A stretch of DNA of 64,000 bases, taken from contig OX597815.1 of the NCBI GenBank assembly GCA_951406725.2, positions 207,018,001 to 207,082,000 of the forward strand, given 5' to 3'. Under the pieces are notes generated by a model, which worked only from the letters and a program-made list of their open reading frames with translations, had not been told where the DNA came from and made no database searches. Positions 11,528 to 14,431 of this stretch are shown piece by piece. Within the stretch, counting starts at the first letter, position 1, and the number at the start of each line of letters is the position of its first letter. Made by a program: the position numbers and the translations under genes. The stretch comes from Octopus vulgaris. Taxonomy: Eukaryota.

Positions 11528-13005
11528 GGACGCATGTTAGCGTGTTGGACTCATGGTCTAGCAATCGTGATTTCAATTCCTAACCCAGGTGGTGTGTTGT
11601 GTTCTTGAGCAAAGTGCTTCATCTTACGCTGCTCTGCGCTTACTTCAACACCTGGCGCGTGGCACACAGTGCACCTGTTCAGACAACGTAGATTTGAGGG
11701 AGAGAGTGAACTAATATGCAAAACGACCATTTGACAACTATAAACAAATCATTTGTGCAGGTGGTTCGACAAAAGCTGAATAACCATACGTCGTCTTCAG
11801 TGGAGGATTTGAACAATGTGGTGGATGAGATTGTCCTCCCAGAAGATGTGAGACTGAGAGTTACAGTGGAAGGTAGGCCGCCGATATGCTTTTCATGTGG
11901 AGAAAAGGGCCACATGAAGGCATGGTGCACCCAGAAAAAGCAACAAGCAGAGCAGGTGGAGAGACAGGAGAGCGTGGACCAGGTGGAACAGGTCAAGGCA
12001 AAGGAAAAAATAAACAGATGATGATTTTACTGTGGTAAGAAAAAGAAGGAGGGGCGGAGGGAGAGGTTCTCCACCAGAGAAACCGAAAAAGAAGAGAGAA
12101 GATATGAGAAAAGAAACTGTGAAGGAGGTCTGCAGGAAGGAAGACAAAAGGGTGACGGAGAAAGAAAGTAAAAAGAAAGTGGAGCTACAAGTAAAGATGC
12201 CAGTTGTTCCGGTGGGAAAGGATTCGGAAATTCAACTGGCCGAAGAGGAGATGGAGAGACTGTTTAGAGTGGAGGAGGAGGAAAAGAGAGAACAAAGAGT
12301 TCAAAATAAAGAAAATACAAGGAGGAAATGGAGTATGGTATTAGGTGACCTACCCAAAGAATGTAGAAATAGAGAAGAAGATAGTCAAGTTTAATCAAAT
12401 GGTAAGAGTGAAAGTACCATCATAGATATATGAAGAGGATATGAAGGCGATAGTGATCGAAAAGGAAAATTATAAGAAACTGGAAGAAATGTGTGGAGAT
12501 AGTATTGACCCACCAGAAGTGAGGGTGGAATTCAAAGAATTGCCACCAGTAGTGGATTTAATAGAAATTGAACCATTCATGAAGTACTACTAAAAAGAAA
12601 CTAAGTATGTTTATATTGACAGGAAAAAAGAAAAGAAAAAAGAAAAAAGAAAAAACGAAAGAGCCAGGTGTTTTATGTTATGTTTAAAAAATATTGAAAA
12701 ATAGAAGAATTGTAGAGGATGTATATAACGGTTCAAATACTTGCAATGGTATGTAACATAATAATTAATTATGTAAATACAAGATAATAATGGACTGAAA
12801 AAAAGGATTAATGGTTCTGCATGTGATGAGGGGCGCATGCAGCCATTCATAACCTCATTGTTATATAATCATCTCATTCAAATTCGTTTTATATAGTGCC
12901 CCCTCTGTGGTGTCCTGTCCGTCCTTGTTTGTCTCCCTCTATTTTGGGCCCTTGTGGCTTATAAAGAAAAGACCATACGTCGTCGAAGATATATAATGGT
13001 CCATT
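11528..13005 (+). mobile_element. Diverged CORE-type SINE (head H4, tail D) interrupted near its 3' end by the ORF1-only element
   Basis: TGTGTTCTTGAGCAAAGTGCTT CORE-like segment; sequence resumes after the TSD at 12972; outer ends approximate. Confidence 0.65.
11796..12971 (+). mobile_element. 5'-truncated non-LTR element encoding only an ORF1/Gag-like zinc-knuckle protein (pseudogenised), followed by a 3' UTR and the F2a-type tail
   Basis: 13-bp TSD ACCATACGTCGTC at 11783-11795 and 12972-12984; EGRPPICFSCGEKGHMKAWC (CX2CX4HX4C); K/E-rich linker; C-terminus ..LPPVVDLIEIEPFMKYY, stop at 12591-12593; tail GTCCTTGTTTGTCTCCCTC..GCCCTTGTGGCTTATAAAGAAA. Confidence 0.85.
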
Positions 13006-13041
13006 ATATATATATAGATAAATATACATGTATATATCTTT

Positions 13042-13460
13042 GGATCTTTTCGGTTTGAACGACAGTTTTTTCTAGCGGTGTCATATGCAATTGTCACTCA
13101 TAATTATGACCCTAGTATCGATCTATTGCATTTCAATCTGTTTTAGGGTTAGGGTTAGGGGTGGGGGGAGGGTATTTTTTTTTCTTCACAAATGTAAATA
13201 AACCCAATCTGTTTCTTAAACGAGGGACATATTCATACGGCACGGAATGTTTTTTTTTACCTCAATAGACGTCAGTGATTGGTTGAAATTGCAGAAATTG
13301 CGGAAAAACAACAACAAATATCTTACAAACTATAGAATTTTCTCAATAAAGCCAAGAGAAAAAGATGTTTTATAAACACATTCTACCAGTATAGGAAGTT
13401 TAAAATTTTTTAGTTACCTAGAAATTATGTTAAAAACTGCCGTTCGAACCGAAAAGATCC
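13042..13460. mobile_element. MITE with GG-starting TIRs and 8-bp TSD (Merlin-like), containing TTAGGG repeats
   Basis: TIR GGATCTTTTCGGTTTGAACG(A/G)CAGTTTT at both ends; TSD ATATCTTT at 13034-13041 and 13461-13468; (TTAGGG)3 near 13143. Confidence 0.9.
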
Positions 13461-13529
13461 ATATCTTTTATTGTTTTGCTTCCTTCAGTAATTAGACTGC
13501 AGCCATGTTGGGTCACAACGTAGGAGGAT

Positions 13530-14431
13530 TTTTTTTATGCGCCCTTTTCAAGCTTAGCCAGGATTATGGGCCAGGTTTCTCGGTTTCTATGGCGTATGTG
13601 TTCCCCTCAGCTGGATGGGACGCCAGTCCATCGCAGCGTTACTCAAGAAACAGGAAGGAAGAGTGAGAGAAAGCTGGGGCGAAAGGGTACAACAGGGACC
13701 GCAGCCACCCACTGCCGGAGCCCCGGTTTCTTTATTAGCCACAGGAGCACAAACATAGAGGGGGACAAACAAGGACAGACAGGGCACCACAAAGGGGACA
13801 ATACATAGAACGAATATCATAAGATGATTATACAATAATGGGGTTATGAATGGCTGCATGCGCCCCTCATTACATGCATTACCATTAATCTTTTTAAACT
13901 GTCCATTATTATCTTGTATTTACATAACAATTAATTATCGTCTACCCTTACAATTATTTGAACCGTTATATACATTATCTACAATTGTTCTTCATTTTCC
14001 GATATTATTAAGCATAGCATAAAACACTTACTCTTTCTTTTTTCTTTTTCTTTTTCTTTTCCTCCTTTTTCTTTTTCTTTTTTTCTTTTTCCTCTTTTTT
14101 CTTTTCCTTTTCTTTTTTCCTGTCGCTTTGACATATTTATTTTTTAGTAATATTTCAATTGTGGTTCGATTTCTACTAAATCCACTACTGGTGGCAATTC
14201 TTTTAATTCCACCGTTATTCCTGATGGGTCGATATTATCTCCACACATTTCATGTAGTCTTTTATAACTTTCCTCTTCAATTACTATCGCGTTCATGTCC
14301 TCTGCCGGAGCCTCGTGGTGCTTTAGGTGTTTTCGCTCAATAAACACACACAGCGCTTGGTCTGGGAATCGAAACCGCGATCCTCCGACCGCGAGTCCGC
14401 TGCCCTAACCACTGGGTCATTGTGCCTCCAC
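13530..14431 (-). mobile_element. SINE head H3 with tail B, split by an insertion
   Basis: The two halves 13530-13726 and 14302-14431 join into a copy homologous to 37006-37322. Confidence 0.88.
13727..14301 (-). mobile_element. Second, shorter copy of the ORF1-only element
   Basis: TSD CTGCCGGAGCC(C/T)CG at 13712-13725 and 14302-14315; EDMNAIVIEEESYKRLHEMCGDNIDP..LPPVVDLVEIEPQLKYY*; same 3' UTR and tail as 11796-12971. Confidence 0.88.

What the first reader, a model, noticed from the sequence alone, without database searches (positions are those of the whole stretch)
11796..14301. ORF1-only ('half-LINE') retroelement family in two TSD-flanked copies
Seen: the element at 11796-12971 has a CCHC knuckle in an L1/Tx1-ORF1-like context, a charged linker, an unrecognised C-terminal domain, a stop, a 3' UTR of about 380 bp and a tail, with no RT or endonuclease between them. 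The second copy (13727-14301) has the same ORF-end-to-tail junction. Over the last 51 codons the copies have no indels or stops, and by my count differ at 9 synonymous and 14 non-synonymous codons, more synonymous than neutral decay predicts. Established: HAL1 elements are ORF1-only derivatives of L1. Inference: an analogous non-autonomous family whose ORF1 was under selection while it borrowed RT in trans.
Basis: partly seen in the sequence, partly recalled or inferred. Interest (0 to 1): 0.7.

Follow-up and report, generated by a model that had tools for sequence, protein, structure and literature searches.

The report
Octopus ORF1-only hitchhiking retroelement family
Two broken copies of an octopus jumping gene run straight from an RNA-binding-protein gene into their tail with no reverse transcriptase between, so the family likely kept its own RNA-packaging protein and borrowed the copying enzyme from another element, a known lifestyle that I did not find reported for octopus.

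Summary
Copy 1 (11796-12971, +) and copy 2 (13723-14301, -) are 76% identical and flanked by 13-bp and 11-bp target-site duplications. Both run ORF end, stop, 378/421-nt UTR, tail, with no RT. The codon count (28 same, 9 synonymous, 14 non-synonymous) is exact; dN/dS is about 0.32 (P 0.012-0.049). An intact Octopus bimaculoides homologue (386 aa) folds as predicted RRM, CCHC knuckle, disordered linker and an unnamed ferredoxin-like C-terminal domain. Public contigs show a multi-copy family that ends at the tail. Best reading: an ORF1-only non-autonomous LINE that works like HAL1, HeT-A or Ag-Sponge but is not HAL1. The partner LINE and a full-length copy were not seen; the Tx1 origin is inferred. 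Known kind, apparently undescribed octopus variant.

The parts
11783..11795 (+). Left target-site duplication of copy 1 (13 bp)
   Evidence: chance about 1e-4
11796..12971 (+). Copy 1: 5'-truncated, decayed ORF1-only retroelement
   Evidence: a contig extends 190 nt further upstream in ORF1
11797..11886 (+). Last strands of the predicted RRM-fold domain of ORF1
   Evidence: matches P0001 from residue 98; model residues 41-123 align to RRM/ferredoxin-like folds, Z 7-8.4
11887..11928 (+). Single CX2CX4HX4C zinc knuckle
   Evidence: Pfam PF00098, 21.7 bits against cut-off 20.8
11929..12332 (+). Charged, predicted-disordered linker, with two frameshifts (near 12015 and near 12310-12340)
12333..12593 (+). 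Conserved C-terminal domain of about 85 aa (two copy-specific stops) and terminal stop codon 12591-12593
   Evidence: 74% identical to P0001 293-386; pLDDT block means 79-93; best structural Z 5.0, ferredoxin-like; no Pfam match
12594..12971 (+). 3' UTR, 378 nt: A-rich start, then a conserved body
   Evidence: 13% divergence from copy 2 over 298 ungapped columns; no long ORF
12916..12969 (+). 54-nt tail shared with the window's abundant SINE-like repeat; 4-bp hairpin at 12947-12959
12972..12984 (+). Right target-site duplication of copy 1
13712..13722 (+). Target-site duplication at the 3' end of copy 2 (11 bp)
13723..14301 (-). Copy 2: last 51 codons of ORF1 (14299-14147), stop (14146-14144), 421-nt UTR and tail; inserted in a SINE
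14302..14312 (+). Target-site duplication at the 5' end of copy 2
57305..57582 (+). Third, far-diverged unit: stretch like the C-terminal domain (about 57320-57400), stop, short UTR, same hairpin tail; 11-bp duplication at 57294 and 57583
   Evidence: 7.0 bits, reached by 0 of 868 other window segments and 0 of 1000 shuffles; not significant in the whole-window search (i-E 1.6)
42093..42323 (-). Example of the SINE-like repeat that shares the 54-nt tail (13 copies aligned)
54540..55050 (+). N-terminal part of a related ORF1, apparently A-to-G hypermutated; a separate insertion

Best explanation
These are 5'-truncated, TSD-flanked insertions of an octopus retroelement family whose ORF1 runs directly into a 3' UTR and tail with no reverse transcriptase, and which likely moves by borrowing the reverse transcriptase-endonuclease of an autonomous LINE that recognises the same tail. 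Shown: the ORF1-stop-UTR-tail order in independent insertions, the duplications, the 5' truncation, the multi-copy family, the tail shared with a SINE, and excess synonymous change in the C-terminal domain. Predicted: ORF1p is RRM(s), one CCHC knuckle, a disordered charged linker and a small ferredoxin-like domain. Inferred mechanism: (1) an ancestral two-ORF LINE, probably of the L1/Tx1 group, lost ORF2 by internal deletion and kept its 5' part and 3' end; (2) master copies are transcribed and make ORF1p, which coats their own RNA in cis, hence selection on ORF1 after ORF2 was gone; (3) the partner's ORF2p binds the terminal hairpin, as it would for the SINE, nicks the target and reverse-transcribes from the 3' end (TPRT), giving 11-13 bp duplications and frequent 5' truncation; (4) the copies here decayed after insertion.
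For: Junction shared by two copies 24% diverged. A public contig likely bridges linker to UTR with at most about 178 letters between 12532 and 12703, where the window has 170 (record and joint matched by their equal depth of 66.9). Five X7 contigs continue from 12583 into stop plus A-rich sequence. Sequence behind 12969 differs between contigs (agreement 0.47 in 8 contigs, 0.45 in 10), so nothing common follows the tail. A third diverged unit has the same layout. dN/dS 0.32; since the copies share the junction, this selection acted on lineages already lacking a downstream ORF2. P0001, P0002, P0009, P0013 and P0017 all end within 1 residue of the domain end. 0 of 32 family sequences match an RT or endonuclease Pfam family at E<=0.1. 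Tail shared with 13 SINE copies; hairpin paired in 58 of 60 cells, G-C in both elements against C-G in 12 SINE copies. RRM plus CCHC is type I ORF1p (PMC5203782 passages). ORF1-present non-autonomous LINEs are an established class (PMC5786205 passages).
Against: No full-length copy, 5' end or autonomous partner was seen: no genome is held and 5 pattern scans of the prokaryote/virus collections found nothing. One search showed only 24 of 351 loose ends and 32 of 1356 piece rows, and skipped the A-rich stretch 12617-12661 just behind the stop, so rarer ORF1-ORF2 junctions are not excluded. The selection test rests on 51 codons and 27 differences; P is 0.049 once transition bias is modelled. The hairpin is 4 bp, its compensatory change is one event, and the tails fold no better than shuffles (z from -0.77 to +0.56). 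Gene models are fragments (median well under full length), so the absence of ORF1-RT fusions is weak.
Confidence: 0.8

Rival explanations
1. The copies are by-products of an autonomous two-ORF LINE: RNAs cut short at a polyadenylation signal in a long spacer between ORF1 and ORF2, or spliced RNAs lacking ORF2, copied by the element's own RT. No separate ORF1-only lineage exists.
For: The end holds an AATAAA-like signal. Selection on ORF1 would follow naturally. No full-length element was seen.
Against: No poly(A) at the ends. The same 54 nt are the 3' terminus of 13 SINE copies, which marks a true element end. Contig sequence behind 12969 is heterogeneous, not a common ORF2. Spliced RNA is not excluded by these points.
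Confidence: 0.09
2. The element is autonomous with unusual gene order: the RT ORF lies upstream and the gag-like ORF is the last ORF, so 5'-truncated copies show only the gag-like ORF.
For: All three window units are 5'-truncated. The furthest upstream extension seen is 190 nt, still inside ORF1.
Against: Non-LTR elements normally place ORF1 before ORF2 (PMC11203168 passages; also recalled). 0 of 32 family sequences carry an RT or endonuclease Pfam match, and none of the 29 profile-matched proteins has the RT/APE motifs searched.
Confidence: 0.05
3. These are processed pseudogenes of a domesticated ORF1-derived host gene family, in the manner of L1TD1, not of a selfish element.
For: An intact 386-aa ORF exists in O. 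bimaculoides. The N-terminal part of a relative resembles ZCCHC3-like clusters (score 0.89, a lead only).
Against: 529 and 683 contigs in two DNA runs lie on the element. Many divergent, mostly fragmentary paralogues exist, one lying inside an RGS gene model. The end is shared with a SINE and has no poly(A).
Confidence: 0.04

Closest known systems
HAL1 (half-L1) of mammals
   Same: Encodes only ORF1p, non-autonomous, internal-deletion derivative of a LINE (PMC5753468 passages; PMC4494074 passages).
   Different: HAL1 derives from mammalian L1, whose ORF1p is the Transposase_22 type. Here ORF1p is RRM plus CCHC with an extra C-terminal domain, and the end is a hairpin tail shared with a SINE rather than poly(A) (poly(A) in L1/HAL1 recalled).
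HeT-A (Drosophila, Jockey-derived) and Ag-Sponge (Anopheles, CR1-derived)
   Same: ORF1-present bipartite non-autonomous LINEs (PMC5786205 passages). HeT-A's protein is gag-like with zinc knuckles (recalled).
   Different: HeT-A is telomere-targeted (search listing). These copies are interspersed, two of them inside SINEs, with 11-13 bp duplications and no shared target sequence.
L1-Tx1 LINEs of Octopus
   Same: Present and recently active in O. vulgaris: 13 recently active families, 80 in all (PMC13282606). [quoted passage not shown]
   Different: Autonomous Tx1 carries ORF2 after ORF1; none follows here. The link to Tx1 was not tested with an RT.
SINE-LINE pairs with a shared 3' tail
   Same: SINE tails derive from the LINE 3' end that the LINE protein recognises (PMC5786205 abstract). 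The element and the SINE share 54 nt.
   Different: Here a protein-coding non-autonomous element and a SINE share the tail; the LINE that serves both is unidentified.

Membership tests
ORF1-present non-autonomous LINE (HAL1/HeT-A/Ag-Sponge kind) | Encodes an ORF1p-type protein | tested here: met
   Predicted RRM fold (Z 7-8.4, rmsd 2-3 A over 70-80 residues) plus zf-CCHC
ORF1-present non-autonomous LINE (HAL1/HeT-A/Ag-Sponge kind) | No ORF2 between ORF1 and the 3' end | tested here: met
   Copies 1 and 2, third unit, bridging contig
ORF1-present non-autonomous LINE (HAL1/HeT-A/Ag-Sponge kind) | No RT anywhere in the full-length element | not testable with these tools
   No genome held; all copies seen are 5'-truncated
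ORF1-present non-autonomous LINE (HAL1/HeT-A/Ag-Sponge kind) | Amplified as a family by TPRT (duplications, 5' truncation, many copies) | tested here: met
   Duplications of 13, 11 and 11 bp; 529 and 683 contigs laid
ORF1-present non-autonomous LINE (HAL1/HeT-A/Ag-Sponge kind) | 5' and 3' parts traceable to an autonomous LINE | tested here: inconclusive
   Partner not found; the tail shared with a SINE points to one
ORF1-present non-autonomous LINE (HAL1/HeT-A/Ag-Sponge kind) | ORF1 under purifying selection after loss of ORF2 | tested here: met
   dN/dS 0.32, P 0.012-0.049 on 51 codons; modest power
HAL1 proper | ORF1p of mammalian L1 type (Transposase_22) | tested here: not met
   0 of 32 sequences match Transposase_22 at E<=0.1; 21 of 32 match zf-CCHC
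HAL1 proper | Poly(A) 3' end (recalled) | tested here: not met
   Ends are a defined tail plus 2-4 nt before the duplication
L1/Tx1 clade | RT phylogeny | not testable with these tools
   No RT in the element; partner unknown
L1/Tx1 clade | Type I ORF1p (RRM plus CCHC) | tested here: met
   not exclusive to Tx1 (Jockey-superfamily ORF1s also have RRM/CCHC: search listing, and recall)
L1/Tx1 clade | Target-sequence preference (many Tx1) | tested here: inconclusive
   Three target duplications share no obvious motif; too few sites

The most novel reading that the evidence does not exclude
Octopus carries an old, diversified superfamily of ORF1-only retroelements, with members down to about 30% protein identity that all end just after the same previously unnamed folded C-terminal domain. 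That domain is an adaptor gained or retained to capture the partner LINE's reverse transcriptase, so that these elements and the dominant SINE compete for one enzyme through one terminal hairpin.
Probability: 0.2. Interest if true: 0.65.

Novelty: new variant of a known kind. Interest (0 to 1): 0.4.

Why it matters
Why some non-autonomous LINEs keep ORF1 while dropping the enzyme is open; the literature proposes that their ORF1p multimerises with the partner's proteins (PMC5786205). The examples named there come from three clades in mammals and insects. An octopus family with a different ORF1 type, an extra conserved domain, measurable selection and a tail shared with a major SINE adds an independent case. 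It gives a three-way LINE / half-LINE / SINE system in which cis need for ORF1p and tail recognition can be tested. It also explains a set of Octopus 'CCHC-type domain-containing' gene models as element copies.

Tried and rejected
Own genome: none held. DNA pattern scans for the UTR or tail: 0 matches in 2 metagenome, 2 prokaryote-genome and 1 viral scan; these collections are not expected to hold octopus DNA. Search for ORF1-RT fused proteins with a knuckle-region profile: 6 hits among 8000 scored candidates, all plant RRM/CCHC proteins; uninformative because the known family members were crowded out. Pfam on the linker and C-terminal pieces: none. PDB by sequence profile: mostly knuckle and low-complexity matches. 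Foldseek: no match with E<=0.001 for either model. C-terminal domain: best Z 5.0, common ferredoxin-like arrangement, no family named; Atlas structure neighbours TM 0.51-0.58, all under the naming bar. 'C-terminus of ORF2' reading rejected: the knuckle is CX2CX4HX4C and the intact homologue has an RRM, not an RT, upstream. Whole-tail RNA folding: no better than shuffles. tRNA origin of the SINE not confirmed: ARAGORN 0, Rfam 0, my box patterns 0. Expression: no RNA holder on record; two runs only guessed to be RNA hold contigs, so no claim is made. Earlier findings: nothing relevant in 4 look-ups. Bao and Jurka 2010 is not held and is known only through citations. Repbase and Dfam could not be searched, so a consensus of this family may exist there.

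Full report
1. Observation. The two copies are real. Copy 1 lies at 11796-12971 (+) between exact 13-bp repeats, copy 2 at 13723-14301 (-) between exact 11-bp repeats; the chance of such flanks is about 1e-4 and 3e-4. Copy 2 interrupts a SINE: its two flanks match single uninterrupted paralogues at 32543-32741, 37006-37315 and 43204-43397, which hold the duplicated stretch once. The copies are 76% identical over 12434-12969 and colinear from ORF end through stop, A-rich stretch and UTR to the tail. The UTRs are 378 and 421 nt and have no stop-free frame above 85 aa. Over the last 51 codons, 28 are identical, 9 differ synonymously and 14 non-synonymously. NG86 gives dN 0.151, dS 0.466, ratio 0.32 (Fisher P 0.012). 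In 20,000 neutral simulations with the observed 19 transitions and 8 transversions, 4.9% reach 9 synonymous codons. The UTR body differs at 38 of 298 ungapped columns (12.8%), far less than synonymous sites (34.7%), so it looks constrained too. Copy 1 is dead: its ORF lies in three frames with internal stops at 12342 and 12423. Contigs of all four runs read another letter at 12344, so that stop is copy-specific.

2. The protein. The C-terminal 55 aa find one relative among 20 candidates, P0001 (Octopus bimaculoides, 386 aa, 76% identical), which ends at the same residue; P0002 is a second. P0001 matches copy 1's knuckle, linker and C-terminal pieces in order, and copy 1 starts at about its residue 98. 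A search of 1.84 billion representatives with the knuckle region gave 262 hits at E<=0.001, 150 listed. Many are generic multi-knuckle proteins; 29 of the 157 proteins held match a profile of the pre-knuckle strands (12 of these built the profile). Of 10 proteins looked up, 8 are named Octopus, 1 is a plant protein and 1 has no species. This places the window in or near Octopus (inference). An AlphaFold2 model of P0001 from a 32-row alignment has confident domains at about 41-140 and 300-386 and a low-confidence linker (mean pLDDT 67.9). Residues 41-123 align to RRM and other ferredoxin-like domains (3 of 48,161 chains at Z>=8, many RRMs at Z 7-8.3). With the Pfam knuckle (21 of 32 sequences) this is a type I ORF1p as defined in PMC5203782 (passages). 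The N-terminal part of relative P0104 lies near arthropod CCHC clusters (0.92) and ZCCHC3-like two-RBD-plus-knuckle clusters (0.89, a lead). The C-terminal domain has no Pfam match and only weak ferredoxin-like structural matches (best Z 5.0, rmsd 3.3 A over 75 residues; TM 0.51-0.58). It occurs in 6 of the 157 proteins; 5 end within 1 residue of it, and the sixth is a chimeric RGS gene model.

3. Is ORF2 really absent? No genome is held, so I laid contigs of 4 of the 24 listed runs on 11760-13010 at 80% likeness. 529 (X3), 683 (X7), 77 (X17) and 48 (X18) contigs lie on it; the two DNA runs cover every bin of the element. One X3 record of 791 nt covers 12056-12532 and has 214 letters beyond. 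A joint of equal depth rejoins at 12703 with 36 letters on the short side, leaving at most about 178 letters where the window has 170; I infer a third colinear ORF1-to-UTR copy. Five X7 contigs leave the reference at 12583 into a stop and A-rich sequence. Behind 12969 the loose ends disagree (0.47 in 8 contigs, 0.45 in 10), as expected where elements end in unrelated flanks. An X18 contig extends 190 nt upstream of 11805, its 30 shown letters reading as ORF1, confirming 5' truncation. Against: only 24 of 351 loose ends and 32 of 1356 piece rows were shown, no piece spans the element, and the tool skipped 12617-12661. Minority ORF1-ORF2 junctions and the 5' end are therefore untested.

4. The tail. 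The last 54 nt match the 3' end of an abundant SINE-like repeat (13 copies aligned). There is no poly(A). A 4-bp hairpin is paired in 58 of 60 cells; one pair is G-C in both element copies and C-G in 12 SINE copies (6 of 500 shuffles reach the score; slid controls 25-52% paired). That is one evolutionary event, and overall folding is not better than shuffles, so it is a hint only. SINE tails derive from the end recognised by the partner LINE (PMC5786205 abstract). The shared end therefore marks this as a true 3' terminus and implies a common partner (inference). No RT-bearing piece in the window carries this tail.

5. A third unit. The tail search also hit 57546-57579. There a 278-bp unit is flanked by an exact 11-bp repeat and holds a stretch like the C-terminal domain, a stop, a short UTR and the hairpin. 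In the whole-window search its match is not significant (i-E 1.6). Tested locally it scores 7.0 bits, reached by 0 of 868 other window segments and 0 of 1000 shuffles. I noticed the protein likeness by eye after the tail had fixed the place. It suggests a far-diverged sister family with the same layout.

6. Mechanism. Most likely an internally deleted LINE kept ORF1 and its 3' end. Its ORF1p would package its own RNA, and a partner's ORF2p would bind the tail and insert it by target-primed reverse transcription. Because copies 1 and 2 share the ORF1-UTR junction, their common ancestor already lacked a downstream ORF2, so the synonymous excess arose in ORF2-less lineages unless parts were exchanged later. 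Rivals: truncated or spliced RNAs of an autonomous element (0.09), reversed gene order (0.05), pseudogenes of a domesticated gene (0.04).

7. Comparison and novelty. ORF1-present non-autonomous LINEs are known: HeT-A from Jockey, HAL1 from L1, Ag-Sponge from CR1 (PMC5786205 passages; PMC5753468 passages; PMC4494074 passages). This element works like them but is not HAL1: no Transposase_22 match in 32 sequences and no poly(A). A Tx1 origin fits the ORF1 type and the presence of L1-Tx1 in Octopus, but no RT was available to test it. I found no report of an ORF1-only family in Octopus in 8 relevant searches (listings only, except as follows). PMC13282606: part 1 of 3 read, whole main text and the one supplement word-searched, with 0 mentions of ORF1, HAL1 or non-autonomous. 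PMC9115989, PMC8967140 and PMC11203168: passages only. Bao and Jurka 2010 was not held, and Repbase, Dfam and the papers' repeat libraries could not be seen and may contain this family unnamed. Verdict: real, a known kind in an apparently undescribed variant; interest 0.4.

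Noticed in passing
window 54540-55050 (+): N-terminal part of a related ORF1 (38.5% to P0104, E 6e-9) that looks A-to-G hypermutated. Against P0007, 12 of 18 differences fit A>G and 1 fits G>A; pooled over 4 overlapping alignments 41 vs 9, against 120 vs 111 for copy 1. G 44% / A 18% versus 31% / 40%. Possibly a genomic retro-copy of an ADAR-hyperedited RNA; tested at protein level only, no clear duplication, and no direct report seen in one search listing.
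   Followed up: partly
window 57305-57582 (+): Far-diverged TSD-flanked unit with a stretch like the C-terminal domain and the SINE-type hairpin tail; included among the parts.
   Followed up: yes
joints 12969 to 12827/12828/12832: In 3 of 4 runs, contigs join the element's 3' end to a second copy of its last 140 nt or so, and summed contig depth rises several-fold from about 12810. This suggests tandem 3' ends or a short derived family, or other families sharing the last 160 nt.
   Followed up: no
window 42093-42323 and at least 12 more copies (family D14): Abundant SINE-like repeat of about 230 bp, sometimes in tandem (15400-15993, 21089-21491); its middle resembles the Deu/Nin domain (recalled, untested). 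tRNA origin not confirmed.
   Followed up: partly
window 56600-57100 (-): Decayed stretch resembling the end of an RTE-type reverse transcriptase ORF (by recalled motif).
   Followed up: no
window 9188-9703 (+): 171-aa frame that reads like a Tc1/mariner transposase fragment (by eye).
   Followed up: no
window 26088-26872 (+): Frames resembling a decayed reverse transcriptase (by eye).
   Followed up: no
window 60959-61524 and 62915-63436: Inverted repeat of about 570 bp at 91% identity with a 311-bp perfect core; possibly a foldback element or an assembly artefact.
   Followed up: no
window 13040-13472 and 49262-49731: Repeat of about 450 bp (86% identical) lying between the two copies, MITE-like by size.
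   Followed up: no
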